From positions 64,001 to 128,000 of the forward strand of contig JAUVXV010000007.1 of the NCBI GenBank assembly GCA_030603365.1: 64,000 nucleotides of DNA. Reading direction: 5' to 3'. The position numbers and the translations under genes are program-made. How positions within the stretch are numbered: the first letter of the stretch is position 1; each line of letters starts with the position of its first letter. Source of the DNA: Candidatus Heimdallarchaeota archaeon (GTDB lineage Archaea; Asgardarchaeota; Heimdallarchaeia; Heimdallarchaeales; Heimdallarchaeaceae). A model generated the notes under the pieces. It worked only from the letters and a program-made list of their open reading frames with translations, was not told where the DNA came from and searched no databases. Below are positions 3,187 to 31,860 of the stretch, piece after piece.

Positions 3187-5247
3187 GTGAATATTGAAAG
3201 ATTAATAGATCATTCTGAAATAACAGAAGCTCTCAAGCAAATAGAGGAACAGCTAGAGAATGATAAACTTACTGAAGAAGAGCAATTAGATCTACTAATT
3301 TTTAAGAGCGATGCTACATGTTTGAGTGGAAAATGTGAAAAAGGATTAGAACAGTCTATCGATTTAGTTAATAAAACACGAAGAATTGGCAACTCGTTGC
3401 TTGAAATAAAAGCTTCACTCCAAAGAGCAACTATATTGAACAGATTAAGAAGATATGATGAATCTAAAACTATTTTGGAGGAGACATTTTTACTTTTTCA
3501 GAATCTAGCAAACAAAGATGAGGAGGAATATAAAAAGAACTTAGCTAAATGGTATTCACTGAATGGTGTATACTTACATCTTCAGAAACAGTATAATGAT
3601 GGTTTAGAAGAATATGAAGAAAGTCTTCAAATACGAAGGGAAATTGATTATAAACATGGCATTGCTGAGATTTTAGTTGCTAAAGGACATTCTTATCTGA
3701 AAAAATTGGATTTTGAAAGATATCGAGAGCTTAATGAAGAAGCATATGAAATTTTCAAATCAGAAGACAATAAGAGGATGATGGGTGTTGCTTTGATAAA
3801 TATAGGAAATTCTCACATCTATAAAGGAGATATGCACACTGCAATCAAAATAAATCTAGAAGTATTAGAAATTCGAAAACAAATGGGAAAACAAACAAAT
3901 CTGTTTTATACTAATGATCGATTAGGATACCAGTACTGGAGGATTGGAGATCTAGATAAAGCATTTGAGCATTGGAAGGAAGGTTATGCTTTAACTAAGG
4001 ACATGAAGGATGAAAGAGGTATTTATAGTAGTTTTAAGAGCTTTGGGCTATATTACTATGAGTTGGGAAATCTCGAAAAGTCATTAGAGTATCAATATAA
4101 AGCACTAGAAAAGGCAAGAGAGATAAATATTAAACGTGATGTAACTTACGCTATTGCTGAAAGATTAACAGTAATTGGATATATTTATCTAAGAATGGGT
4201 GAATATGAAAAAGCTCTGGCAAGTATTGAGAAAGGAAAAACCAACATACCTGAGAAATATCATGATTTTATAAGAGCTGAGAACACTAAAGCTTTTGGTA
4301 TTTATTATACAACAGTTGGAGATTTTGAGAAGGCAGAAAAATTTCTTAATGAAGCTATGAAATTTTATGAAACAAGCCAACGACCTTATGATATCTATGA
4401 AGTATTACATTATCTAGGAATAGTATTTCATCAGAGAAATGAAACTAACAAGGCAATTTCTGTCTTGAAAAGAAGTTTAGAAATGAGTCTTCAAATGCAA
4501 GATAAAGTAACAATAGCAACAAATCTTCTAGAATTAACAAAGATATATACTCAGCAGTTCGATCTAGAGAATGCTAGATTTTACCAATTACAACTCTCTG
4601 AATTAAGCTCTAGTATTCAGTTAGCAACTATAAGTCTAAACAGTAAGATTGCTGAAGCAACAGTCCTGAAATTAAGTGAAAACCAGAGAGATAGAATAAA
4701 ATCAGAGACCATTTTTGAACAGATTATAGAAGAAAAAGCTTTATGGCATTCTCAGAAAATTTATGCAATACTATGTCTTTGTGAACTCTTTATTGAAGAC
4801 TTCTCTCATGAGGAGGACAAAGGAATTCTACTCAGAATTAAAGAACTCGTTGAGAAACTTCTCACCATCTCAAAAAGCCAGAATTCACCATCCTTAACGT
4901 GTGAAACATATTGGTTGCAATCTCAATTATCGATGTTCGATTTTGATTCTAAAACAGCAAGGGAATTATTAACAAATGCCTTAGAACTAGCACAAAAAAG
5001 AGGTTTAACCCTTCTAGAAGATAAATATAAATCTAAACTTGAAACATTAAGTAGTTTTGTCGCAAGCTGGAAAAACTTCACTTCTAAAACTGCTTCAGTT
5101 TCTGAAATAATAGAACAAACAGAACTAGATAGTACCATAAACGGAATGAAGAGAAATGGATCTCTATTCATGCAAGAACTACACAAACATACAAGCAATA
5201 GCAAAAAGATTTTTTCGACGGAATTAGAATTGAAACAGAGTCATTAA
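3187..5247 (+). CDS. Tetratricopeptide-repeat protein (Asgard-type long TPR)
   Basis: Repeated ~40-aa units of type LG..Y...GD.DKA......AL; C-terminal helical domain shared with 6607..8931. Confidence 0.85.
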   Translation: MNIERLIDHSEITEALKQIEEQLENDKLTEEEQLDLLIFKSDATCLSGKCEKGLEQSIDLVNKTRRIGNSLLEIKASLQRATILNRLRRYDESKTILEETFLLFQNLANKDEEEYKKNLAKWYSLNGVYLHLQKQYNDGLEEYEESLQIRREIDYKHGIAEILVAKGHSYLKKLDFERYRELNEEAYEIFKSEDNKRMMGVALINIGNSHIYKGDMHTAIKINLEVLEIRKQMGKQTNLFYTNDRLGYQYWRIGDLDKAFEHWKEGYALTKDMKDERGIYSSFKSFGLYYYELGNLEKSLEYQYKALEKAREINIKRDVTYAIAERLTVIGYIYLRMGEYEKALASIEKGKTNIPEKYHDFIRAENTKAFGIYYTTVGDFEKAEKFLNEAMKFYETSQRPYDIYEVLHYLGIVFHQRNETNKAISVLKRSLEMSLQMQDKVTIATNLLELTKIYTQQFDLENARFYQLQLSELSSSIQLATISLNSKIAEATVLKLSENQRDRIKSETIFEQIIEEKALWHSQKIYAILCLCELFIEDFSHEEDKGILLRIKELVEKLLTISKSQNSPSLTCETYWLQSQLSMFDFDSKTARELLTNALELAQKRGLTLLEDKYKSKLETLSSFVASWKNFTSKTASVSEIIEQTELDSTINGMKRNGSLFMQELHKHTSNSKKIFSTELELKQSH

Positions 5248-6606: not shown

Positions 6607-8931
6607 TTGTCAACTTCATATAGCAGTTTATTTTCTAAAGCACAACAGCTTTATCGTGAGGGTCTCTATGCTGAAGTTGATGTCCAGTTATCTAATCTTG
6701 AAAAACTTACCGAAATTACAGAAGAAGAAAATAAAAAGATAAGTTTACTGAAACTTAAAAATTTGATAAAACAAAAGAAAAATGAAAAAGCTTTGAATTA
6801 TGCAGACTCATTGATTTCTAATTATACAGATAAGGATACTGAATTGGAAAAAGTAAAGGTAATGCTTCACATAATTGAGGTTCAGATGAATTTAAGAGAA
6901 TGGGAAGAATCGACTATAATTATTATTTCAGCTGAAAAAACGCTAACTAAATACTCAAAATCACAGGAAGATGATGTTTTAGATCTTAATGCTAGATTGG
7001 AGTATGTTAAAGGTTGGGAATTTCTTGGAAAAAATCTTTATGACAGAGCACTTGACCATCTGGAAAAAAGTCTTGAAATGTACAGGGAATTGGGGGATAA
7101 ATATAAGATAGCTTTAGCAATGCGTTTAATCGCAACCAATTTATTCTATCTTGGTGAATTTGAGAGCTCAAGAAATTTTTATGATACATGTTTAGAGATT
7201 TTTAAGAGCTACAAATCAAGAATGGAAATTGCATCAGTTTATTTTGGCATTGCAGGTATTCACTATAGACGAGGAGAACTGAATCAAGCTTTGGAAATTG
7301 CAAGTAAATCATTAGCAATACGAGAACAAACAGATGATCAATATGAAATTGCTGGTTCTGTTCAAGGAATCGCTTACATCTATAGTCACATGGGAGATTT
7401 GGACAAAGGATTAGAATACCTTCGAAGATGCAAAATGATCTATGAAAAACTTGGATTTAAGCATGATGTAGCAAAATGTCTCATGGACATTCATGGTAAT
7501 TTTCGTCAAAAAGGTGAATACGATAGAGCTCTTGCAACTATTTTTGACTACTATAGTTTGAAAAAAGAACTTAATGATGAAAGATGTGTAGGTATTGCTT
7601 ACGGATACATTGGAACGATCTATGAAATAAAAGGTGAATTTGATGAAGCAATAATCAACTACCAGAAAGCTCTCAAGATGTTAACTAATTTTGATGTTGT
7701 TGATTCGATTTCAGATGTTCATTATAATTTGGGGAATATTCTTCATAAGAAAGGTGAAAATGAAGAATCTATTAAGCATCATCTTCAGGCTCTAGAAACT
7801 CGAAAGAAGGGCTATGGAGGTAGAAGTCAAGGAGTACTTATTGCAAAATCTCTGAAAAGTTTAATTCAGATAAATTTAGATTTAGAACTTCCGAAAACTG
7901 CTGAGAAGTATTTTGAAGAGCTTAAGGAAGTAGAAAGACAAGTAGAGAACAAAATAGTTTATTATCTTTACAGGCTTTCAGAGGGTCTCATTCTTAAGAA
8001 CAAACCATTGGATGAGAAAAAGGAGAGGGCAGGGATCATTTTTGAAGAGTTAAGTAAAGATACTATAATTGACTATACACTAACAGTTGAAGCTCTCTTA
8101 AATTTAGCAGATATTTTATTGTGGAAATTAAGTAAATCTGAAAGAGAGGATATCCTAAAGGAAGTTAAGGACATAATACTGAATCTAGAAACGATAGCTT
8201 CGGAAAAGAACTCATATGCTTTGTTGGCTGAGACTTATTTCTTACATGCTCAACTATCATTGATAGAACTGGAAACAGAGCAAACTCAGGAATTATTAAC
8301 AAATGCATTACAAATTGCAGATGATAAGGGTTTAAACAAATTAGCAATCAAAATTTCAAATGAATATGATAATCTACTTGATAAGCTAGATAGATGGGAA
8401 GATTTTACATTAAAATTACCATCAATTGCTGAAAAAATGGAACTAACTCACATTGAAAAACAACTTAACAATGTGATAAAAGGTAGGATGACTATAGATG
8501 TTGTCCAAGAAAATGAACAACCCATTCTTTTCTTCATGTTAGATCATAATGAAAGAATTCTATATTCCGAGCAATTTGATTCAGGTCTTACTCAAGAAAG
8601 AATAGACAAAATATTGATCGATGTACATAAAAAAATAAAAAAAGAAGCTATTCTTGGGAAACTACATCGAGCAAGAATTCAAGAACTAAATTGTGTAATC
8701 AGAAGTGAATTTGGTGTGATCTTGTGCTATTTCTTCATTGGGAAATCTTATTCAGGATTGAAGAAAATTGAAAACTTAGTTGAATTAATAGAAAACAACA
8801 AAGATGTCAAGGAAAAAGTAGAAATAATTTCTTGTTCAGATCAATCTCTTAGTGTCAATGATAGAATAAAACTAACAGAGCTGCTCGATGAGGTTCTTCT
8901 TGTAAAGAATGGGGAGATTCTTAGTAGTTAA
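6607..8931 (+). CDS. TPR protein with C-terminal longin/roadblock-like domain
   Basis: About 9 TPR units. C-terminal PILFFMLDHNERILYSEQF...VILCYFFIGKSY has a beta-beta-alpha-beta-beta-beta-alpha pattern. Confidence 0.8.
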   Translation: MSTSYSSLFSKAQQLYREGLYAEVDVQLSNLEKLTEITEEENKKISLLKLKNLIKQKKNEKALNYADSLISNYTDKDTELEKVKVMLHIIEVQMNLREWEESTIIIISAEKTLTKYSKSQEDDVLDLNARLEYVKGWEFLGKNLYDRALDHLEKSLEMYRELGDKYKIALAMRLIATNLFYLGEFESSRNFYDTCLEIFKSYKSRMEIASVYFGIAGIHYRRGELNQALEIASKSLAIREQTDDQYEIAGSVQGIAYIYSHMGDLDKGLEYLRRCKMIYEKLGFKHDVAKCLMDIHGNFRQKGEYDRALATIFDYYSLKKELNDERCVGIAYGYIGTIYEIKGEFDEAIINYQKALKMLTNFDVVDSISDVHYNLGNILHKKGENEESIKHHLQALETRKKGYGGRSQGVLIAKSLKSLIQINLDLELPKTAEKYFEELKEVERQVENKIVYYLYRLSEGLILKNKPLDEKKERAGIIFEELSKDTIIDYTLTVEALLNLADILLWKLSKSEREDILKEVKDIILNLETIASEKNSYALLAETYFLHAQLSLIELETEQTQELLTNALQIADDKGLNKLAIKISNEYDNLLDKLDRWEDFTLKLPSIAEKMELTHIEKQLNNVIKGRMTIDVVQENEQPILFFMLDHNERILYSEQFDSGLTQERIDKILIDVHKKIKKEAILGKLHRARIQELNCVIRSEFGVILCYFFIGKSYSGLKKIENLVELIENNKDVKEKVEIISCSDQSLSVNDRIKLTELLDEVLLVKNGEILSS

Positions 8932-9017
8932 TTACATTAAGAAATGTCTTAAAAAAATCTTGTTAATGTCTTGAGCAAATGTATTTAATAAGTGAAATTA
9001 TGTTATATTTGACAGAG

Positions 9018-10226
9018 ATGAGTAAGAAAATTAATCGTAATCTAATAATAACAGTGTCAATTATTACACTGATTTGTTCTATTTCTTTTTATCAGTTTCA
9101 AACAAATGGAAGTACTGAAACCACTAGTTTTACTACAGAAATAAAAGCATATACAGATCATGACCCTATTCAAATTCTATCGGATGAAAATTTTATAGAT
9201 TATGGTTTTGAAGGAGAAGGAACATATGATGAACCTTACTTAATTGAAAACTTAAGAATCATTAACTCCACACACAAAGGTATAGAGATAAATGAAACCT
9301 CAATGCATTTCATTATAAGAAATTGTTATATTGAAACTGATCAAAAAGGAATACTTGTAAGATTCGCTGCTAATTGGACAGTAAGAATTTACGATAATAT
9401 TCTAATTGATAACAATCTAGATGGAATAGTCGTTGCTAATACTCACCATTTCTCTATAGTGGGTAATGCAGGTACAGGGGATCACACCGCAATCAGAATC
9501 AATAATGTTTCTAATGGCTATATAGCTAATAATGAGCATATTGGTGGAGAAAACATAGACTTTCTTAGATCTGTAGGAACTCATCTAAGTAATACTAAAG
9601 ACACTGTTATTTACAATAACTACTTCGATAGTTTCAATAGAGGAATATACACAATTGAATGTAGCAACTTAACAATACAGCAAAATTATTGTGTGAACAG
9701 TAAAGAATATGCAGGATTGTATCTCTACTATTCTCATTTAAATCTAGTACTAAACAACACTTGCATATCTAATGTTGAAGCAGGAATTTTATTGTATAAG
9801 TCTAATTTTAACGTTATAAAATATAATAATATCTCGTTAAATGGAGTAATGGGTTTAGCTGCTACTCTTAGTGGATTAAATGTAATTTATCACAACGATT
9901 TTGTTGATAATGGATTTACTGGTAGTTATTCTTCCCAAGGATGGGATGATACTGGAGACAACCTTTGGTGTAATTTGGAATTAAAAGAGGGTAATTATTG
10001 GTCTGATTTAAACACAAATGTGTACCTTATTGATCCTGGATTCAATATAGATTTTTATCCTTTAGAATCACCAGTCTCTGGTGAAGTAATAGATCCAATA
10101 CTTGAACCTACAACACCCTATATTACAGAATATTCAACCTACATTCAAGTAATATTGCCTTTTGCTCTAATACTAGGTCTTGCAGTTTTTTACTCAAATA
10201 GAAGAAACAAGAAAAAAAATTATTGA
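9018..10226 (+). CDS. Membrane-anchored parallel beta-helix (NosD/PbH1-like) surface protein
   Basis: Signal-like N-terminus, HDPI.I.SD..F...G.GT..PY.IE motif, NN..N...GI repeats, GNYWSD, C-terminal TM plus basic tail. Likely start ATG 9018 (ORF open from 8979). Confidence 0.8.
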   Translation: MSKKINRNLIITVSIITLICSISFYQFQTNGSTETTSFTTEIKAYTDHDPIQILSDENFIDYGFEGEGTYDEPYLIENLRIINSTHKGIEINETSMHFIIRNCYIETDQKGILVRFAANWTVRIYDNILIDNNLDGIVVANTHHFSIVGNAGTGDHTAIRINNVSNGYIANNEHIGGENIDFLRSVGTHLSNTKDTVIYNNYFDSFNRGIYTIECSNLTIQQNYCVNSKEYAGLYLYYSHLNLVLNNTCISNVEAGILLYKSNFNVIKYNNISLNGVMGLAATLSGLNVIYHNDFVDNGFTGSYSSQGWDDTGDNLWCNLELKEGNYWSDLNTNVYLIDPGFNIDFYPLESPVSGEVIDPILEPTTPYITEYSTYIQVILPFALILGLAVFYSNRRNKKKNY

Positions 10227-10440: not shown

Positions 10441-10634
10441 AGTAAATCTTGCAAGGATTTTATATTTCATTTCTTTTATTAAACATTTTATAAACTATGT
10501 TGAGAATATTGACCTTTTACATTTTCAAGGAATAACATTTTTTTTGTCATATATTTTTCAATGTCAAGAACGATTGAGTTTTAAAGAGTTCTATCGTTTT
10601 GTTTTTCGTTAGAAAAAGTATTCTTGGGATTATA

Positions 10635-12341
10635 ATGACAAAGAAATTATTGATTGTTGGTGGAGTAGCTGGAGGTGCATCAACAGCTGCAAGATACAGA
10701 CGACTCAATGAATTCGCAGAAATCACTATTCTTGAAAGAGGGCCATATGTTTCTTTTGCGAATTGTGGATTACCCTACTATGTTGGTGGAGTAATAGAAG
10801 ATAAAGAGAATTTAGAATTAGTTACACCTCAAGTTTTTCTAGAAAGATTCAATATTGATGTTCGTATAAACAACGAAGCTATTTCAATTGATAGAGTGAC
10901 CAAAACAGTAAAGGTAAAAAATCTAGAAGATGATAATGAATTCAACCTAGAGTATGATACTTTAGTCTTGTCACCAGGAGCTGAACCTATTAAACCTCCT
11001 TTCAAAGGTATGGATAATATTCCTGTTTTTACTCTACGTACTATTCCTGATACACTGCAAATTGTTGAATATATTGAGACAAATAAACCTAAGAGAGCTA
11101 CAATTATTGGAGGAGGGTTCATTGGATTAGAGATGGCTGAAAACCTTCATGCAAAAGGTATAGAGATAACAATCATCGAATTGATGGATCAAGTAATGGT
11201 TACTCTAGATAGAGAAATGGCTCAATATGTACATTACGAATTGTATCGTAATGATGTTGAGTTAGTTCTAGGAGATGGTGTGAATTCATTTGAAAAGGAT
11301 GAGAGCGGACAAGTGTTTGTGATAACTCAGAGTGGCAGAAAAGTTTCCACTGATATAGTTGTTCTGGCGATAGGTGTCCGTCCGGAATCAAAATTAGCTA
11401 AAGAGTGTGGTCTTGAACTTGGCGAGAGAGGTCATATAGTAGTAAATAAATTCATGCAGACATCAGACCCTCATATCTATGCAGTAGGTGATGTAGTTCA
11501 GGTTTCAAACTATATAACTCAAGAAAAAATAGCTGTTCCTCTAGCTGGTCCAGCAAATAAACAAGGGAGGATAGCTGCTAACAATATTGCGGGAGAAACT
11601 GAAGAATATGAAGGTGTTCTTGCTGCAGCTGTTGTGAAGGTTTTTGATTTAACAGTCGCTCAAGTAGGATTAAATGAGAAGATGCTCAAAAACATGAACA
11701 TAGAATATGAAAAAGTATACCTTCACCCTATGAACCATTCTGGTTACTATCCTGGAGGAAATAAATTAGCACCTAAATTGCTTTTTGATAAGAAAAATGG
11801 CAAAATTTTAGGAGCTCAAGTGCTAGGAGGAGATGGAGCAGAAAAGAGAATTGATGTTATTTCTACAGTTATACACTTTGGTGGTACAGTTTTTGACTTA
11901 GAAAAATTAGAATTAACTTATGCTCCCCCATTTGGCTCTGCTAGAGATCCTGTAAACATGGCAGGTCATATAGCTGCAAATATGGTTAAAGGAAAGATGA
12001 AACCTTATCATTGGCATGATGTTGATGATCTAGTTGAGAAGGGTTCCTTTTTGATAGATGTAAGAAGAGACGATGAATTTGAAATAATCACGATTAAAGG
12101 TGCAATTCATATTTCAGAATTTGAGATGAGACAAAGATTAGACGAATTACCAAAAGATAAACCAATTTATGCTTTCTGTCAAGAAGGCTTTAGAGCTTAT
12201 ATTTCGCAAATGAATCTTCTGCAAAGGAACTTTGATGTTCAAAACCTAATTGGTGGAATCAAGACATATATTATAGCAACAGCTACACAAGAAGAATTGA
12301 AAAAAATGGCAAAGAACCCTCCCTATAGAATAATATTCTAA
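10635..12341 (+). CDS. cdr: CoA-disulfide / persulfide reductase with C-terminal rhodanese domain
   Basis: IVGGVAGG FAD motif, SFANCGLPY redox Cys, GGGFIGLE, YAPPF, rhodanese DVR...FCQEGFR. Start ATG 10635. Confidence 0.9.
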   Translation: MTKKLLIVGGVAGGASTAARYRRLNEFAEITILERGPYVSFANCGLPYYVGGVIEDKENLELVTPQVFLERFNIDVRINNEAISIDRVTKTVKVKNLEDDNEFNLEYDTLVLSPGAEPIKPPFKGMDNIPVFTLRTIPDTLQIVEYIETNKPKRATIIGGGFIGLEMAENLHAKGIEITIIELMDQVMVTLDREMAQYVHYELYRNDVELVLGDGVNSFEKDESGQVFVITQSGRKVSTDIVVLAIGVRPESKLAKECGLELGERGHIVVNKFMQTSDPHIYAVGDVVQVSNYITQEKIAVPLAGPANKQGRIAANNIAGETEEYEGVLAAAVVKVFDLTVAQVGLNEKMLKNMNIEYEKVYLHPMNHSGYYPGGNKLAPKLLFDKKNGKILGAQVLGGDGAEKRIDVISTVIHFGGTVFDLEKLELTYAPPFGSARDPVNMAGHIAANMVKGKMKPYHWHDVDDLVEKGSFLIDVRRDDEFEIITIKGAIHISEFEMRQRLDELPKDKPIYAFCQEGFRAYISQMNLLQRNFDVQNLIGGIKTYIIATATQEELKKMAKNPPYRIIF

Positions 12342-12345
12342 TCTA

Positions 12346-13485
12346 TCAATATAACTTGGGAATCATTTTGAATTTAGCAATATCACAGTAATCTTCCCAG
12401 AGTTTTCCGTATTTCTTCCGACATCTTTTATCATCTCTCCATGCTCGGTGAATAAGAAGAATTAACAAAGAACCAGGAAGTATCAAAGGTATTGCAGAGA
12501 TTAATCCTGTGGTTAATACAATTACTAAATAAGTAAGTATTTCACCAGTATAGTTCAGCTTTCTTCCAATTCCCCAAAACCCTGAGATTAGAATTTTTCC
12601 TTCCAAAGATTTAGCCTGTTTAAACCATATTTTGGCTTTTGGGTTCTTTTTGAATCTGTACTTTTGAATATTTGAAGCCCTAAAAATCCAAAGAGAGATA
12701 AGATAAGCAACACATAAAAAGATTATAACAAAATTACTGAAAGCGATTTCTTGAGTAATAATGAACCATCCACCTATAGAATAGAAAAATGGCACATAAA
12801 CTGTATCTCCCCAAGCAAGCATAAATCCAAAATTCTCAGACATTACATCCCAAGTAGAGAGCATAAACTCTTCGAATATGTAATGTGTAAAAAGATACCC
12901 CCACCAAAATGCTTGGTATAACCACATCTGAGGAAGAACATACCCTAGATTATTCAGCTGAGTGAATAGAAAACTCCAGTTTAAGATTGACAAACCTATC
13001 AATGAGGGCTGATATGCAAACATTTTCAGATCTACTCCCCACCATGTAGGATTCAATTCAGAACCAAACCAGATGTCATGGAGAATGCCCTTCAAACCTT
13101 TTCTTCTATCCTTTCCTTGTTTTCTTCTTCCTAAGAAGAATAGTAAAATTGTCCACAATACAGCATAACAATTAGCCACAATTAGAAGCGACCAAAATCG
13201 TATAGTAATATACTCAAGATTCCAAATGAAGGACGATACTTTCTCGTAGAGTACAAAAACAAGTAAAGCTACAAAAGTGAAAAGAAGAAATAAAATAAGA
13301 CCAGTAAGTTTATACTCTTTTTTGGTTCCATTTTTTAAGATTTCACCTATTCCTTTGATTCCAGGGAGAAATTTAGCTCCTAGAAACATTATAACAATAA
13401 ATATGGTAATCATTGCTAAAGCTGTTAGAAGGTTCCAAGGAGTAACAGGAAGCATTAATTCTAGAATACCAGCCATCTTATTCAC
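12346..13485 (-). CDS. ERG4/ERG24 family sterol reductase homologue (delta14-/delta7-reductase, LBR-like)
   Basis: Multi-TM protein with G.ELNP, DLKMF, GFMLAWGD..YVPF.Y, SGFWGIGRKLNYTGE and LLIHRA.RDD.RC..KYG..W..YC family motifs. Confidence 0.85.
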   Translation of the reverse strand: MNKMAGILELMLPVTPWNLLTALAMITIFIVIMFLGAKFLPGIKGIGEILKNGTKKEYKLTGLILFLLFTFVALLVFVLYEKVSSFIWNLEYITIRFWSLLIVANCYAVLWTILLFFLGRRKQGKDRRKGLKGILHDIWFGSELNPTWWGVDLKMFAYQPSLIGLSILNWSFLFTQLNNLGYVLPQMWLYQAFWWGYLFTHYIFEEFMLSTWDVMSENFGFMLAWGDTVYVPFFYSIGGWFIITQEIAFSNFVIIFLCVAYLISLWIFRASNIQKYRFKKNPKAKIWFKQAKSLEGKILISGFWGIGRKLNYTGEILTYLVIVLTTGLISAIPLILPGSLLILLIHRAWRDDKRCRKKYGKLWEDYCDIAKFKMIPKLY

Positions 13486-13800
13486 CTAATAGATAACTAA
13501 TCTTTCAGAGCTTGCTTAAAATTGTTATCCATGATATCTGTTCTTACTATTATAGCATTAACCTCAATTTCACTTATAAGAAACGAATGAGCTACTTTAT
13601 TACAAAGTCATGAAGTTTGTAAGCCAAAGAAGGGTGATAAAATAAAATTGGAAACTGCTCAAGAAGTTTGTTTAGAGATGAGAGAAGGAAAAGCTAAAGG
13701 GATATGGAAAATGCAATGCTACTTCTGCAATAAAATAGCTAAGAACAATCCCAAAAAATACTGTTATTACAATAAACCTAATTATTCTGGTTGTAACATC

Positions 13801-15233
13801 ATGATGAGTTATTGTCATCTTGTCATATTGACAAGAACAGTTAAATTTCTTTCTTAGAGGTCATCACATAGTACATGAGAGGTGTTCTATGCTCACTCTG
13901 AGGGGATACATCACGTATCCTCCTACCCCGTTCACACTCCTTTTAGGAAGCGCTTTCGGATCGCTTTTAACTAAAATGTTGTAAGCAGCATTCACATCAG
14001 CATTGATGAGGTGTCCTTGAGCAGATTTGAACAATCCCCGTTTGACTCTTTTTCCTGCATACTTCTTTCTAAATTGCGGGAATTCGTTATCAAGAAAACT
14101 ATTTTTAGAAGTGTATTGCTCAGGAATGAGTTCAACCTTTATCCCCCTCTCTGCTGCTTTATATTTCAGCATGTTGATAATCCGCATAAAGGGGATGGAA
14201 ACAAACATTTGGGTGATCTTTTTCCAGAAATGCACTCCTTGCTTCCACTTCTCGTTATAGCCGATGATCACCTCATGAAGCTCTCGTTCCACCCACAGTT
14301 CTACCAAGTAATGGCTGAGCTTATGGATAGCATCTTTGAGTTTCTTCCTCCACTTCTCTCGAAGCGTGTAGAAAACTGTTCCGTACTTCAATTTGTTCTT
14401 CGCTTTCAGCTGCTGTCTTTGCTGTTGCACATATTGTTCTCGTAATTGTGTTTGTTTTTTCAGATAATACTGGGTAATTGATTTTATTCCTTTCCCCTCG
14501 TCCTTGATAACAATCGGCTGATTCCCGAGGTTATCCACAAAGGTTACAAGGTTATGCATCCCTAAATCGATAGCTCCTTTTCTTCTAGGTCGTCTCCTTA
14601 GTTTGGGCATATTCTTCATATAAACTAGTTCGATGGTATATCCTACTCTTCTAGGAACTATTCTCACTTCCCGCAGTTTGGTACCAGCAGTTAATCTTGT
14701 TTTATAATGAAAACCTACTTTCTTAGGCAACACTAGCCAGCTATTCTTAATCCTTGCTTGTTGGTTGGTGAAGATTGCTACCACCTCCCCATCTTTGGTT
14801 TTGTAATTGGGTGGATGGGGCATGGCAAAAAATGCTGCAGGATTGTTTTTCCACTCCTTCAATGCTTGAAAGTACCCTTTCCAATTCCTAGATAGAAGTT
14901 TAAGCGTGTGTTGTGCAGTGTGAGCAGGAAGCACCTTGTAGCACTCTTCTCCTTTAAGGAGAGTGTTAAGGTCGGAGTAGAAGAGTAGTGTTTTTGTCTT
15001 CTTCAGAGAAGTTTTGATCAGAAAATTCGCTCGATTATAGAGATTTTTGACTCGATGACAGAGCTTGCTTAACGCAGGATGATAAGATACTTCTATACAC
15101 TCTACACGTAAAGCTTGCACCATCAGTCTTTTACCTAGAATTTCCTATAAAAACTCCAGTAATATCTCGTTCCAAAGTGTCTTTCAAAGTGATCTCTTGT
15201 ACACATAAGATGACAGGATGACAAAATTTCTTT
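13801..15233 (-). mobile_element. Non-autonomous IS200/IS605-type (IS1341-like) element carrying tnpB only
   Basis: GC-richer than flanks. On the minus strand TTTAT precedes the left end and the right end finishes ...TCAT. Right-end hairpin TCTTGTCA-tat-TGACAAGA at 13818-13836. No tnpA and no target duplication beyond an ambiguous AT. Confidence 0.75.
13864..15123 (-). CDS. tnpB: RNA-guided endonuclease TnpB
   Basis: KNLYN.AN N-terminus, RuvC-I AIDLG, VIIGYN..WKQ, EQYTSK.SFLD, RuvC-III NADVNAAYNI. Confidence 0.92.
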   Translation of the reverse strand: MVQALRVECIEVSYHPALSKLCHRVKNLYNRANFLIKTSLKKTKTLLFYSDLNTLLKGEECYKVLPAHTAQHTLKLLSRNWKGYFQALKEWKNNPAAFFAMPHPPNYKTKDGEVVAIFTNQQARIKNSWLVLPKKVGFHYKTRLTAGTKLREVRIVPRRVGYTIELVYMKNMPKLRRRPRRKGAIDLGMHNLVTFVDNLGNQPIVIKDEGKGIKSITQYYLKKQTQLREQYVQQQRQQLKAKNKLKYGTVFYTLREKWRKKLKDAIHKLSHYLVELWVERELHEVIIGYNEKWKQGVHFWKKITQMFVSIPFMRIINMLKYKAAERGIKVELIPEQYTSKNSFLDNEFPQFRKKYAGKRVKRGLFKSAQGHLINADVNAAYNILVKSDPKALPKRSVNGVGGYVMYPLRVSIEHLSCTM

Positions 15234-15352
15234 ATAAATAGTTATCTTAAAAACAGAAAGATTAGATTTGTTACAAGACAGAACAATATTTATAAATTCT
15301 CAGTAAAATGAGAATTAGATATTGTATTGATGAGAATAAATTAAAGGTTAGA

Positions 15353-16501
15353 ATGATGATAAAAAAAACTTCAATTATGCTTCTTCTAGTTTTCACATCT
15401 TTAGTGATTAATCAGAATTCAATTAGAGGAGAGATTGAGCTCGATTTAATTCCTATAGATTTTAAATTTGTTCATGCAACAAGATCGGATTTAGGAGATC
15501 AAGTTCATGTAGAATTTAATGATACGCTCATGCCAGATAACCAAGTTTATGGTCCTGATGATGAAGTTTGGTTCAGTTTTACTATGGATGTTGCCGAATT
15601 CAGGTTGGATCCTCAACAAGAAGTTGATTATAGCCAGGCAGATTATTGGTTCTTTGCCGAAGAAGACGAATTTGGTGTTTATAATGAGACTAGATTCCAA
15701 GGTGTTCTTAATTTATATCTAGATAGAAATGATTTTGGTTTATCAAATATTCATAACTTCGGTGGAACAATAAACACAACTCAGGATTTATTACAATTCT
15801 ATTTAACTCCTGGTTGGCATTTACTAACAGTTTTTGCAGCTGAATACGTTTCTGATCCAACAAGAACTGTAATGTATTGGCAAACATCAAAGGATGAGAA
15901 ATGGTTCTATATTTCTGCAGATACGACAAGTGAACCCCCTGTAAGAGAAAGCTCAGAAGACACTGTTACAGTTAAAGCTAATCCTCTTAATAACACTGAA
16001 TGGAATCCTTCATTTGATTGGAACTTTCTTAATATCTGGCCACGAGCTGAGAGAACAGATGGAACATCTATAGAACAAACATTAAATCAAGAAGGACAAG
16101 TTGCTAGAGTAGAAGCCAATTATAATGTAACTACAAGCTCATTATGGCTAAATGAAACAAATGAGGAAGGAAGACCACAGGCAGTTTATTATGATTCTAC
16201 ACATATGGGTGAGGGGGGCATTTTTTGGTGGATAAATGATGGACCTGTTACAAGTGAACTTGAAACAAGTTTCGAGCTCAACAAAGGTGTTAACTTCATT
16301 TACTTTGCAGCTGTAGGTTTTAGAGTTTACTTCACATTGGTCTATGATCCATTACTTCTACCTAGAGCAGATGTAGATAGTAATGTGTTTATTGTAGAGA
16401 ATAATATTCCACTTCCATCACCATTTGGATTCGAAAGTTTTGTATTAGCTTTAGCAGTTTTTGCAACAATTAGTCTCTATGTAAAGAGGAAAAGAAATTA
16501 A
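15353..16501 (+). CDS. Secreted, C-terminally anchored beta-rich surface protein
   Basis: Signal peptide MMIKKTSIMLLLVF; acidic beta-rich body; tail SPFGFESFVLALAVFATISLYVKRKRN resembles an archaeal CTERM sorting signal. Confidence 0.7.
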   Translation: MMIKKTSIMLLLVFTSLVINQNSIRGEIELDLIPIDFKFVHATRSDLGDQVHVEFNDTLMPDNQVYGPDDEVWFSFTMDVAEFRLDPQQEVDYSQADYWFFAEEDEFGVYNETRFQGVLNLYLDRNDFGLSNIHNFGGTINTTQDLLQFYLTPGWHLLTVFAAEYVSDPTRTVMYWQTSKDEKWFYISADTTSEPPVRESSEDTVTVKANPLNNTEWNPSFDWNFLNIWPRAERTDGTSIEQTLNQEGQVARVEANYNVTTSSLWLNETNEEGRPQAVYYDSTHMGEGGIFWWINDGPVTSELETSFELNKGVNFIYFAAVGFRVYFTLVYDPLLLPRADVDSNVFIVENNIPLPSPFGFESFVLALAVFATISLYVKRKRN

Positions 16502-22480: not shown

Positions 22481-23743
22481 ATGAAAAGGCAATCAAAACA
22501 ATCCAAAGTTTCAATTAGAAGATTTTTGTGTGTTTTATTTTTAATTTTAGGAATAAGTATATTCTCAAGTATGAGAGTAAATTCTACAACTATACCTTCT
22601 AACCCACCATCTTACTCCTCACTTACCCCACATGATCCTATATCCATTAGTTCTGATAGTTACTTTGCGATTTTTCCAGGAACAGGAACGAAAGAAGATC
22701 CTTATGTTATTGAAGGATATGAAATTATAACATCACAAAATAGAGGTATTTATATCACTGGCACAACGAAACATTTTACTGTTCGTAACTGCTATGTTGA
22801 AGCAAGATGGAGTGGCATTTATATCGGTACTGTAGCTGATGGAACTGCAACTGTCATCAACAACACTTGTAACAACAATGAAAACGGCATCAATCTTCAC
22901 TCTTCTGATTGTGTCGTTACTTACAATCTTGTACAAAAAAATATAGACTATGGAATCTGTCTATCTTCTTCTGCTGACAACAACATTATTCACCATAATA
23001 TTTTCGTAGATAATAACTTAGGAAGTTCTTCTCAAGCTATTGATAATGGAAAGAAAAACAAATGGTATGACACTGAGACAAAAGAAGGGAATTATTGGTC
23101 AGACTTGGGAGATGAATGTACATATAAAATTGATGGTGATGCTCATTCTAAAGATTTATATCCATTAAACAGAGCACAATCTTGCCTAAATCCTATTACT
23201 ATGACAATACTCACTATTGTCCTACCTTTACTAGTTGGAGTTGCTATTCTGGCGTTTGTAGTACCGAAGTATGCCATTCCCTATACTCGAAAAACCATCA
23301 TACCCTATTTTCGCAAAAGAAAAGCTGAAAGACAAGATCGAATAGCAAAATTGTTGTTCTGTCCTAACTGCAGGAATAGTGTTAAATTATCTTCAACATT
23401 CTGTGAAAACTGTGGAACAACTCTTCCAAAGAGAAAGAGATTCGTACTCAGCAGAAAAAGAATGTTACTCTATAAAAGTAAATTAATAGAAAGTTCTAAT
23501 GAAGAATTGATGAAACAGCTGATAATTAATATTGTCATAGCTATTCTTTTTGTATTGGTAATCTCTACTGAAATAGTTTTTGTGATAATTCTGGGGGGTT
23601 TTTTAGCTGCTCATGGTGGGCCTGGTTTTTTAATCGGAGGAATTATTTTAGCACCAATCTTGATAATGCCGCTCATCTTTTTCACCATTCCTAGATTTGC
23701 TGCTTTATTGTCAGAGAAAAAGACAAGGAGAAGAAAGAAATAG
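22481..23743 (+). CDS. PbH1/NosD-like ectodomain + TM + zinc ribbon + 2 TM protein
   Basis: HDPISI...GTGTKEDPYVIE, GNYWSD, TM ILTIVLPLLVGVAILAFVV, CPNC...CENC, two further TM helices. Confidence 0.75.
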   Translation: MKRQSKQSKVSIRRFLCVLFLILGISIFSSMRVNSTTIPSNPPSYSSLTPHDPISISSDSYFAIFPGTGTKEDPYVIEGYEIITSQNRGIYITGTTKHFTVRNCYVEARWSGIYIGTVADGTATVINNTCNNNENGINLHSSDCVVTYNLVQKNIDYGICLSSSADNNIIHHNIFVDNNLGSSSQAIDNGKKNKWYDTETKEGNYWSDLGDECTYKIDGDAHSKDLYPLNRAQSCLNPITMTILTIVLPLLVGVAILAFVVPKYAIPYTRKTIIPYFRKRKAERQDRIAKLLFCPNCRNSVKLSSTFCENCGTTLPKRKRFVLSRKRMLLYKSKLIESSNEELMKQLIINIVIAILFVLVISTEIVFVIILGGFLAAHGGPGFLIGGIILAPILIMPLIFFTIPRFAALLSEKKTRRRKK

Positions 23744-31335: not shown

Positions 31336-31860
31336 CTAGACAAACTCATCAACAAACCATTTGAAGGCATTGAATATTCCTTCTCCTGTCTTTGCTGAGG
31401 TTTCAAAAACTGCCCATTTAAAAGGTAAATCCAACAACTTGAATTCTTCAATAAAGAGTGATTTTTCTATAACATCAGATTCATCACTCTTATTGAGTAA
31501 AATTAATATTATCAAATCTTGATCCAATTGTGCGTGAATGGTTTGTTCAAACACATCCTTTGCCTCATCAAATCTCATAATATTAGATCGATCAATAACG
31601 AATACAATTCCATCAGATTTTTCGTTGATATTGTGCCACATATTTCTGAAATCTTCCTGACCAGCTAAATCAAAAACGTTAATTTGTAAATTTGGTAAGT
31701 GTAAGGTTTCTCTATTCACACCCATAGTTGGAGTTGTTTCAACGAATTCACCAGTTTCTAGAAACTTTAGTATAGTTGTTTTACCAGCATCATCTAGACC
31801 ACAGATTGTTATATCTGCATGTTTTGTTCTGCTTCGAAATAGGTTTAGTAAGAACGACAT
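31336..31860 (-). CDS. Arf-family (ArfR-like) small GTPase
   Basis: Amphipathic N-terminus MSFLLNLFR, G1 GLDDAGKTT, G2 PTMG, G3 FDLAGQEDFRNMW, G4 NKSD, G5 ETSAK. Confidence 0.92.
   Translation of the reverse strand: MSFLLNLFRSRTKHADITICGLDDAGKTTILKFLETGEFVETTPTMGVNRETLHLPNLQINVFDLAGQEDFRNMWHNINEKSDGIVFVIDRSNIMRFDEAKDVFEQTIHAQLDQDLIILILLNKSDESDVIEKSLFIEEFKLLDLPFKWAVFETSAKTGEGIFNAFKWFVDEFV

What the first reader, a model, noticed from the sequence alone, without database searches (positions are those of the whole stretch)
12346..13485. Sterol reductase (ERG4/ERG24/LBR family) homologue in an archaeal context
Seen: full-length gene with the family's C-terminal NADPH-binding motifs intact (GFWG..RK.NY.GE; HR..RDD..C..KYG..W..YC) and host-like AT content. 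Established: the family reduces sterol double bonds in eukaryotes and a few sterol-making bacteria, and archaea are not known to make sterols. No squalene epoxidase or cyclase lies in this window. Inference: modification of scavenged sterols or reduction of another isoprenoid; relevant to the origin of eukaryotic sterol pathways.
Basis: partly seen in the sequence, partly recalled or inferred. Interest (0 to 1): 0.7.

Follow-up and report, generated by a model that had tools for sequence, protein, structure and literature searches.

The report
Orphan sterol reductase in Heimdall archaea
A sub-lineage of one genus of Heimdall-group (Asgard) archaea carries an intact membrane sterol-reductase gene, most likely taken once from bacteria, although these archaea have no genes for making sterols, so it bears little on where the eukaryotic sterol pathway came from.

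Summary
Window 12346-13476(-) encodes a 376-aa ERG4/ERG24 protein (Pfam E 4.5e-61). All family-invariant residues and both C-terminal NADPH motifs are present. The AlphaFold model (pLDDT 95.6) matches the bacterial delta14-sterol reductase 4QUV (TM 0.83).

The contig is truly Asgard: it carries an Arf GTPase 18 kb away, and gene order is conserved in 10 related MAGs.

The evolutionary reading does not hold.
- Among 400 Asgard genomes (85 genera) the gene occurs in 11, all in one 100%-supported subclade of one genus.
- A sister lineage has an empty site between the same flanking genes.
- The archaeal sequences form one clade inside a bacterial crown group (Myxococcota, cyanobacteria, Streptomyces; about 50% identity). 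A long branch separates this group from all eukaryotic delta14-reductases.
- Nested placement has 100/100 support, but an AU test does not formally exclude a position just outside the bacterial crown (p 0.06-0.33).

The gene is under purifying selection (dN/dS 0.03-0.16). The genome and genus have no real cyclase, and this genome has no epoxidase, P450, squalene synthase or ERG25/ERG3-type hydroxylase.

Best reading: a horizontally acquired orphan reductase acting on an exogenous sterol-like lipid. The substrate is inferred, not shown.

Earlier follow-ups in this scan, on other genomes of the genus, reached the same reading.

The parts
12346..13476 (-). CDS of the ERG4/ERG24-family (delta14-sterol-reductase-type) membrane reductase, 376 aa plus stop
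   Evidence: ORF. PF01222 E 4.5e-61. 4quv_A E 8e-45. AF2 pLDDT 95.6, TM 0.83-0.84 to 4QUV over 375 columns. dN/dS 0.03-0.16 among carriers.
13477..13485 (-). In-frame extension up to a GTG, probably untranslated. It contains a GGTGA Shine-Dalgarno-like site just upstream of the conserved ATG.
   Evidence: Alignment of upstream regions of G000, G017 and G031. Homologues are 375-376 aa.
13486..13647 (-). Upstream (promoter) region. The proximal ~90 nt is conserved with relatives. Further upstream it is interrupted in this genome by a TnpB element.
12541..12582 (-). Signature motif 1, GFWGIGRKLNYTGE. Its N (residue 308 of the 376-aa protein) aligns with MaSR1 N359 / LBR N547, an NADPH-phosphate contact.
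   Evidence: Residue roles are from PMC4951196.
12385..12450 (-). Signature motif 2, HRAWRDDKRCRKKYGKLWEDYC. Its first R (residue 344) aligns with MaSR1 R395 / LBR R583 in the NADPH pocket.
   Evidence: PMC4951196.
12619..12630 (-). IWFK. The F (residue 285) replaces a G that is invariant in 45 crown-group bacterial homologues. It is the one non-conservative lineage-specific change.
   Evidence: only 7 of 114 crown-conserved columns differ in the archaeal clade.
10599..12341 (+). Flank: CoA-disulfide-reductase-like gene (Pyr_redox_2 + rhodanese), convergent with the reductase and 4 nt from it. It is one side of the insertion site.
   Evidence: Pfam. Synteny in carriers. In non-carrier G010 it is followed after 143 bp by the other flank.
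13864..15123 (-). TnpB (IS605 OrfB / Cas12f-like TNB) ORF of a mobile element inserted between the reductase and its divergent neighbour. It is specific to this genome at this position and not linked to the original acquisition.
   Evidence: Pfam. In G017 the TnpB homologue lies elsewhere and the intergenic gap is 176 bp.
15308..16501 (+). Flank: 397-aa ORF with no Pfam family, divergent neighbour in the G000/G017/G030/G031 group. It is the other side of the insertion site.

Best explanation
This is a functional, bacterial-type delta14-sterol-reductase homologue of the short ~370-aa form of the ERG24/FACKEL/MaSR1 family. The ancestor of one sub-lineage of a single Heimdallarchaeial genus most likely acquired it once by horizontal transfer from a bacterium. 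It inserted between a CoA-disulfide-reductase gene and its neighbour, and it has since been inherited vertically under purifying selection. Shown: family membership, a complete 10-helix fold, an intact NADPH pocket, single gain, empty site, purifying selection, and absence of any other sterol-pathway gene. Inferred: it works like its relatives, as an integral-membrane enzyme that transfers hydride from NADPH to a C=C bond of a sterol-like polycyclic isoprenoid. Because the host cannot make squalene or cyclise it, it would be an 'orphan' enzyme acting on sterols or sterol intermediates taken up from the surroundings. The exact substrate is unknown.
For: Family and fold: PF01222 E 4.5e-61; 4QUV E 8e-45; AF2 pLDDT 95.6 and TM 0.83-0.84 over the full length. 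All 29 columns that are invariant across 68 archaeal, bacterial and eukaryotic homologues are present, including the N and R equivalent to MaSR1 N359/R395. Only 7 of 114 bacterial-crown-conserved columns differ in the archaeal clade. Selection: dN/dS 0.03-0.16 in 9 genomes. Distribution: 11 of 400 Asgard genomes, 1 of 85 genera. All 11 carriers fall in one 100*-supported subclade of the RpoB tree. Synteny is conserved, and the gene's divergence is similar to that of its neighbours. Non-carrier G010 has an empty site. Phylogeny: the archaeal clade is monophyletic. Inner bacteria plus archaea have 100/100 support, and the crown sits on a 0.82 branch with 100/100. Labels: crown = Moorea, Nostoc, Myxococcota, Polyangia, Streptomyces; outside = plant, Naegleria and amoebozoan reductases, then LBR and fungal ERG24. 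Donor-type context: in a Myxococcales MAG the 49%-identical homologue lies directly downstream of a cyclase. In a Streptomyces a cyclase lies about 6 kb away. In a sample of 251 Myxococcota genomes, 4 of 8 crown-type carriers have a cyclase, against 42 of 251 overall. Orphan status: no cyclase, SE, P450, SQS_PSY or FA_hydroxylase in the genome, and no real cyclase in the genus. GC3 is slightly high (96th percentile), consistent with a GC-richer source. Precedent for orphan sterol reductases: Coxiella CBU1206/Stmp1 (PMC8787468).
Against: No activity, substrate or expression data exist, and no RNA run holds the gene. The natural substrate of delta14-reductases, a delta8,14-diene made transiently after CYP51, is not an obvious environmental lipid. 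No conserved neighbour suggests uptake or lipid metabolism: the neighbours vary between sub-lineages (a glyoxalase-like ORF, an SBP_bac_5 protein, unknown ORFs). The AU test does not formally reject placing the archaeal clade just outside all crown bacteria (p 0.059; 0.33). Its closest sisters (P0053, P0071) are unlabelled metagenome proteins, so the donor phylum is not identified. Four of 8 Myxococcota carriers showed no cyclase, so the crown clade is not strictly tied to sterol synthesis.
Confidence: 0.62

Rival explanations
1. Same horizontal origin, but the enzyme has been recruited to an endogenous archaeal isoprenoid (for example a polyprenol/dolichol, quinone side chain or ether-lipid chain) rather than a sterol.
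For: The host has no sterol pathway, yet the gene is kept under strong purifying selection. The wider clan includes polyprenol and steroid 5-alpha reductases, which are the next-best Foldseek hits (7bw1, 7c83) but are not significant (E 0.07-0.34). One invariant bacterial G is replaced by F in all archaeal copies.
Against: 107 of 114 positions conserved in the bacterial crown are unchanged, which gives no sign of a re-modelled pocket. The gene is dispensable for the rest of the genus and phylum, which make the same archaeal lipids without it.
Confidence: 0.2
2. One reading: an ancestral Asgard gene related by descent to eukaryotic ERG24/LBR/DHCR7, informative about the origin of eukaryotic sterol synthesis.
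For: The gene is in the archaeal group closest to eukaryotes and belongs to the delta14-reductase branch of the family. The AU test does not strictly exclude attachment on the stem between crown bacteria and eukaryote-type sequences.
Against: It is found in 1 of 85 Asgard genera, and there only in one subclade. A sister lineage has an empty site. Identity is about 50% to bacteria against 27-36% to eukaryotic sequences. Support for inclusion inside the bacterial crown is 100/100, and the bacterial inner group was never monophyletic without the archaea in 200 bootstrap trees. Published trees place eukaryotic ERG24 with myxobacteria and report no sterol stage-2 genes in Asgard (PMC8237579).
Confidence: 0.03
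3. Artefact: a bacterial or eukaryotic contig misbinned into an archaeal MAG.
For: The assembly has 3.4% estimated contamination. The family is otherwise unknown in archaea.
Against: The gene sits inside a 153-kb contig that also carries an Arf GTPase. The same flanking genes surround it in 10 MAGs, four of them under separate public records. Gene GC equals genome GC. Its tree matches the RpoB tree of the hosts.
Confidence: 0.01
4. A passenger gene with no current function, on its way to loss.
For: One nested genome (G018) lacks it, and G030 shows a frameshifted copy.
Against: dN/dS is 0.03-0.16 with saturated dS between sub-lineages. There are intact ORFs in 9 genomes. All invariant residues are retained. 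In G030 the neighbouring gene is split as well, which points to assembly indels. G018 is 90% complete and lacks the adjacent CoADR paralogue too, so it has either a region-level gap or a deletion.
Confidence: 0.04

Closest known systems
Short-form (~360-375 aa) bacterial ERG4/ERG24 homologues of Myxococcota, Nostocales/Moorea cyanobacteria and Streptomyces, annotated 'delta14-sterol reductase' or 'DUF1295'. A C-14 reductase homologue is listed for Enhygromyxa salina, and another with a locus tag close to the C-14 demethylase and SdmA genes of Calothrix sp. NIES-4105 (PMC10202945 supplement).
   Same: Identity is 44-54% over the full length and the proteins have the same length. The archaeal clade falls inside this group with 100/100 support. 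107 of 114 group-conserved positions are identical.
   Different: Some bacterial members lie next to, or near, an oxidosqualene/squalene cyclase. The archaeal gene has no sterol gene anywhere in the genome or genus. It has an archaeal codon composition and a G-to-F change at residue 285.
MaSR1, delta14-sterol reductase of Methylomicrobium alcaliphilum (PDB 4QUV)
   Same: Same fold: TM 0.83-0.84, rmsd ~3 A over 375 columns. Sequence match E 8e-45. The NADPH-pocket residues N359 and R395 are conserved.
   Different: Identity is only about 30%. MaSR1 is 427 aa with a longer N-terminus and belongs to a sterol-producing methanotroph.
Eukaryotic delta14-sterol reductases: ERG24, plant FACKEL-type, TM7SF2 and the LBR C-terminal domain
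   Same: Same Pfam family, motifs and invariant residues. The gene is on the delta14-reductase side of the family, not with the DHCR7-like rows; no named ERG4 sequence was in the trees.
   Different: Identity is 27-36%. They are separated by a 0.82 substitutions/site branch. The archaeal protein has no Tudor/LBR N-terminal domain, and the host has no pathway.
Orphan sterol reductases of non-sterol-producing bacteria (Coxiella burnetii CBU1206/Stmp1 and CBU1158; Legionella drancourtii)
   Same: Same family and the same situation: a horizontally acquired reductase in an organism that lacks the rest of the pathway. It is thought to modify externally supplied sterols (PMC8787468).
   Different: Those are delta24- and delta7-type enzymes thought to come from amoebal hosts, in intracellular bacteria with an obvious sterol source. 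This one is delta14-type, most likely came from a bacterium, and sits in a free-living sediment archaeon with no known sterol source.

Membership tests
ERG4/ERG24 sterol reductase family (Pfam PF01222) | Profile match above the curated threshold over most of the domain | tested here: met
   207 bits against a cut-off of 27, profile positions 71-432 of 432.
ERG4/ERG24 sterol reductase family (Pfam PF01222) | Ten-helix integral-membrane fold as in MaSR1 | tested here: met
   AF2 pLDDT 95.6, pTM 0.92. Foldseek TM 0.83-0.84 to 4QUV over 375 columns.
ERG4/ERG24 sterol reductase family (Pfam PF01222) | C-terminal NADPH-binding signature motifs and pocket residues (MaSR1 N359, R395 = LBR N547, R583) | tested here: met
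   Both motifs are present. N308 and R344 align to N359 and R395. 29 family-invariant columns are retained.
ERG4/ERG24 sterol reductase family (Pfam PF01222) | NADPH-dependent reduction of a sterol C=C bond | not testable with these tools
   This needs an enzyme assay or yeast complementation.
Delta14-sterol reductase orthogroup (ERG24/FACKEL/MaSR1), as opposed to ERG4 or DHCR7 | Phylogenetic placement with characterised or annotated delta14-reductases rather than delta7 or delta24(28) reductases | tested here: met
   The best PDB hits are both delta14-reductases. In the trees it groups with plant, Naegleria and bacterial delta14-type sequences, while the DHCR7-like rows (P0171/P0231) lie in the far clade. 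No named ERG4 sequence was in the trees. Substrate specificity itself was not tested.
Sterol biosynthetic pathway (functional membership) | Co-occurrence with squalene synthase, squalene epoxidase, oxidosqualene cyclase, CYP51 and the C-4 demethylation enzymes | tested here: not met
   No PF13243, PF08491, PF00067, PF00494 or PF04116 hit in the 89%-complete genome. No real cyclase in 25 genomes of the genus. The bacterial SdmA/SdmB C-4 demethylation genes were not searched.
Asgard-derived eukaryotic signature gene (vertical link to eukaryotes) | Broad distribution in Asgard lineages | tested here: not met
   11 of 400 genomes, 1 of 85 genera, and one subclade of that genus.
Asgard-derived eukaryotic signature gene (vertical link to eukaryotes) | Sister relationship to the eukaryotic homologues | tested here: not met
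   The ML tree places it inside a bacterial crown with 100/100 support. The AU test of a position outside the crown bacteria gives p 0.059 and 0.33, so a stem position is not formally excluded.

The most novel reading that the evidence does not exclude
A lineage of free-living Asgard archaea takes up sterols or sterol intermediates from its surroundings (for instance from bacterial or eukaryotic neighbours in seep or sediment communities) and remodels them with a reductase most likely acquired from bacteria. This would be the first case of sterol metabolism, and possibly sterol use in the membrane, in an archaeon.
Probability: 0.3. Interest if true: 0.6.

Novelty: new member of a known kind. 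Interest (0 to 1): 0.35.

Why it matters
A sterol reductase in the archaeal group closest to eukaryotes could easily be over-read as a missing link for the eukaryotic sterol pathway. The evidence here points instead to a late, lineage-restricted import, most likely from bacteria, so it should not be used in eukaryogenesis arguments. What remains of interest is physiological. An archaeon with no sterol pathway keeps a delta14-type sterol reductase under strong selection. That suggests uptake and modification of foreign sterol-like lipids, and it is testable by expression in yeast or E. coli. I found no paper in the searched library that reports an ERG4/ERG24 gene in Asgard archaea. Published surveys state that Asgard archaea have only the early isoprenoid steps (PMC8237579) and that no cyclases are known in Archaea (PMC7306690).

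Tried and rejected
I therefore could not fetch the contigs of the unlabelled sister proteins P0053 and P0071, and the donor phylum stays unidentified. The listing of cluster members gave them no names.
- NCBIfam: no family for the protein.
- The search for homologous proteins with lengths='longer': no fused forms found. This is weak evidence.
- The search for related loci in genome contigs with the single protein returned only 4 archaeal and 2 bacterial loci.
- Rfam and tRNA scans of the window: nothing.
- Expression: no RNA holder was listed for the gene, and DNA holders had only small shares.
- AU tests of 'archaeal clade outside all crown bacteria' were not decisive (p 0.33 on the 88-row quick tree; p 0.059 on the 57-row careful tree).
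- Gene neighbourhood gave no functional clue. The neighbours differ between sub-lineages and none is lipid-related.
- The second weak PF01222 hit in the genome (C13) is a PEMT/ICMT-type methyltransferase, not a reductase. The many weak C-terminal hits across the class are probably the same kind; only this one copy was checked.
- A link between the adjacent TnpB element and the acquisition was considered and rejected. The element is absent from this position in the relatives.
- A compositional artefact for the sister grouping was considered. P0053 and P0071 are not AT-rich, whereas P0122 is and has a long branch.

Full report
**1. Observation**

An ORF occupies exactly 12346..13485 on the minus strand: 379 aa from a GTG. 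Its upstream region was aligned with two relatives. The ATG at 13476 is conserved and is preceded by GGTGA, and the nearest homologues are 375-376 aa. The CDS is therefore most likely 12346-13476, 376 aa.

The protein matches Pfam ERG4_ERG24 at E 4.5e-61 over profile positions 71-432. No NCBIfam model matches. The best solved-structure relatives are the delta14-sterol reductase MaSR1 (4quv, E 8e-45) and a 592-aa delta14-sterol reductase (9l5r, E 2e-32).

An AlphaFold2 model built on a 68-sequence alignment has pLDDT 95.6 and pTM 0.92. It superposes on 4QUV over its whole length, with TM 0.83-0.84. All 29 columns that are invariant across archaeal, bacterial and eukaryotic homologues are retained. 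These include the residues aligned to MaSR1 N359 and R395. Those residues correspond to LBR N547 and R583, whose mutation reduces NADPH binding and abolishes LBR function in cholesterol synthesis (PMC4951196).

**2. Is the context archaeal?**

The window is G000:C11:64001-128000, on a 153-kb contig of a 3.65-Mb, 17-contig assembly that is 89% complete with 3.4% contamination.

- The assembly has an archaeal SSU rRNA.
- The window carries an Arf-family GTPase 18 kb from the gene (E 8e-41).
- Public records of the nearest relatives are titled Candidatus Heimdallarchaeota.
- In 10 related genomes the gene lies next to the same genes: a CoA-disulfide-reductase-like gene, convergent with it, and a saccharopine-dehydrogenase block. 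Amino-acid identity is 68-82% for the reductase and 68-84% for the neighbours.
- Gene GC (33.8%) equals genome GC (33.3%). GC3 is somewhat high, at the 96th percentile.

Misbinning is excluded.

**3. Distribution**

With PF01222 as query, full-length matches occur in 11 of 83 genomes of the class, all in one genus. They occur in 11 of 400 genomes of the phylum, 1 of 85 genera. The other hits in the class are short C-terminal matches in 170-315-aa ORFs. The one checked in this genome is a PEMT/ICMT-type methyltransferase.

A codon-based RpoB tree of the family puts all 11 carriers in one subclade of 12 genomes (support 100*). One non-carrier, G018, is nested inside it. Two other subclades of the genus lack the gene.

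In the non-carrier G010 the same gene order is present, but the CoADR gene and the next gene are 143 bp apart with no reductase between them. The simplest reading is one insertion in the ancestor of the carrier subclade, followed by vertical descent. The gene tree of the archaeal copies mirrors the RpoB tree.

**4. Phylogeny**

The nearest non-archaeal proteins are ~360-375-aa bacterial proteins at 44-54% identity. Those with names are from Moorea, Nostoc, Myxococcota, Polyangia, 'Deltaproteobacteria' and Streptomyces. Representatives from an exhaustive HMMER search (1707 clusters at E <= 1e-3) supplied more distant sequences. Cluster look-ups labelled these as:

- plant (Apium), Naegleria, Vermistella and Rigifila delta14-type reductases;
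- newt and Priapulus LBR;
- fungal ERG24;
- DHCR7-like proteins;
- a 432-aa Myxococcales protein.

Three analyses were run: FastTree on 189 rows, IQ-TREE quick on 88 rows under LG+C20, and IQ-TREE careful on 57 rows. All of them recover:

- a monophyletic archaeal clade (98-100);
- that clade inside an 'inner' bacterial group of cyanobacteria and Myxococcota (100/100 in the careful tree);
- both inside a bacterial 'crown' that also holds the cyclase-linked Myxococcales and Streptomyces sequences. A branch of 0.82 substitutions per site (100/100) separates this crown from all eukaryote-type sequences.

The inner bacterial group was never monophyletic to the exclusion of the archaea in 200 bootstrap trees. 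The immediate sisters, P0053 and P0071 (92/65), are unnamed metagenome proteins. They are not AT-rich, so composition does not explain the grouping.

One caveat stands. An AU test of the best tree that holds all crown bacteria together without the archaea gives p 0.33 on the 88-row quick tree and p 0.059 on the 57-row careful tree. A position on the stem of the bacterial crown is therefore disfavoured but not formally rejected. Combined with the 1-in-85-genera distribution, either placement implies that this archaeal lineage was a recipient.

Published analyses agree with the backdrop. Asgard archaea have only the early isoprenoid steps, and eukaryotic ERG24 clusters with myxobacteria (PMC8237579). 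No triterpene cyclases are known in Archaea (PMC7306690).

**5. Is the gene functional, and in what pathway?**

Pairwise dN/dS among nine intact copies is 0.03-0.16. Only 7 of 114 columns conserved in the bacterial crown differ in the archaeal clade. Most of these changes are conservative. One is notable: G to F in IWGK/IWFK at residue 285. The split copy in G030 sits beside a neighbour that is also split, which suggests assembly indels. The G013 copy is cut by contig ends.

The genome has no squalene/phytoene synthase, squalene epoxidase, cyclase, P450 or ERG25/ERG3-type hydroxylase. In 25 genomes of the genus, the only 'cyclase' hits are 25-40-bit partial matches; the four over the cut-off lie in ~365-aa ORFs. 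The enzyme is therefore an orphan.

Some of its bacterial relatives are pathway enzymes by context.
- In a Myxococcales MAG the homologue is immediately downstream of a 681-aa cyclase.
- In a Streptomyces a cyclase lies about 6 kb away on the same contig.
- In a sample of 251 Myxococcota genomes, 8 have a crown-type homologue. Four of those 8 have an OSC-like cyclase, against 42 of 251 for any cyclase overall. The other four showed none. Related genomes are not independent, so no statistic is offered.
- The supplement of PMC10202945 lists C-14 reductase homologues for Enhygromyxa salina and for Calothrix sp. NIES-4105. The Calothrix locus tag is close to those of the C-14 demethylase and SdmA genes.

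**6. Mechanism proposed**

By homology, the protein is an integral-membrane enzyme that binds NADPH in the pocket formed by its C-terminal helices and reduces a C=C bond of a sterol-like substrate. This is inferred, not shown. The host cannot make the substrate, so the substrate would have to come from outside. This parallels the orphan sterol reductases of Coxiella, for which CBU1206/Stmp1 is active on yeast sterols (PMC8787468).

The main alternative is recruitment to an endogenous isoprenoid. The near-complete conservation of bacterial-crown positions argues against a re-modelled pocket but cannot exclude it. No neighbour gene gives a clue, and no RNA data were found.

**7. Verdict**

The gene is real and intact, and it lies in a genuine Asgard genome. 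To my knowledge, and in the searched literature, an ERG4/ERG24 gene has not been reported before in archaea. It is a lineage-restricted import, most likely from bacteria, not an ancestral Asgard gene. It is a new member of a known kind: an orphan sterol reductase. Earlier follow-ups in this scan, on other genomes of the same genus, reached the same reading. I tested their claims independently here.

Noticed in passing
window 13648-15311 (ORF 13864-15123, minus strand): A TnpB-only element (OrfB_IS605 + Cas12f1-like TNB) is inserted in the divergent intergenic region between the reductase and the 397-aa ORF. In relative G017 that intergenic region is 176 bp, and a 71%-identical TnpB lies a few kb away instead.
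   Followed up: partly
window 10599-12341 and related genomes: The CoA-disulfide-reductase/rhodanese gene has two paralogue types in the genus. One (76-84% identity) lies next to the reductase. The other (58-60% identity) lies in a different, C4-like context. G000 lacks the second type at the C4 site. G018 has only the second type.
   Followed up: partly
window 31336-31860 (minus strand): An Arf-family small GTPase (Pfam Arf E 8e-41), flanked by ORFs with no Pfam family. It was used here only as an Asgard marker for the contig.
   Followed up: no
G031:C1:84819-89246 (L069) and G031:C260 (L073): RpoB of G031 matches in two pieces within a single 1637-aa open frame, with an in-frame insert of about 500 aa, possibly an intein. 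The row has a very long branch in the RpoB tree. The same MAG has a second RpoB at 61% identity on another contig, which fits its 8% contamination estimate.
   Followed up: no
Class-wide, e.g. G057, G065 (genus g14): Genomes of another genus of the class carry up to 8 ORFs of 170-315 aa each that weakly match only the C-terminal ~90 positions of PF01222. These are probably PEMT/ICMT/DUF1295-type membrane proteins, like the one checked in G000 (L002:1177-2034).
   Followed up: partly
window 8979-10226 and 22481-23743; L030/L032 tandem arrays: NosD/beta-helix proteins occur in the window. In relatives, three tandem 505-521-aa paralogues distantly related to the 22481-23743 ORF lie beside the CoADR gene.
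   Followed up: no
window 3187-5247 and 6607-8931: Two large TPR / MalT-like repeat proteins (686 and 774 aa) lie upstream of the locus.
   Followed up: no
window 12346-13476: GC3 of the reductase gene (0.293) is at the 96th percentile of 1513 long ORFs of the genome (mean 0.236, sd 0.034), although its overall GC is at the median. This may be a faint residue of a GC-richer source.
   Followed up: yes
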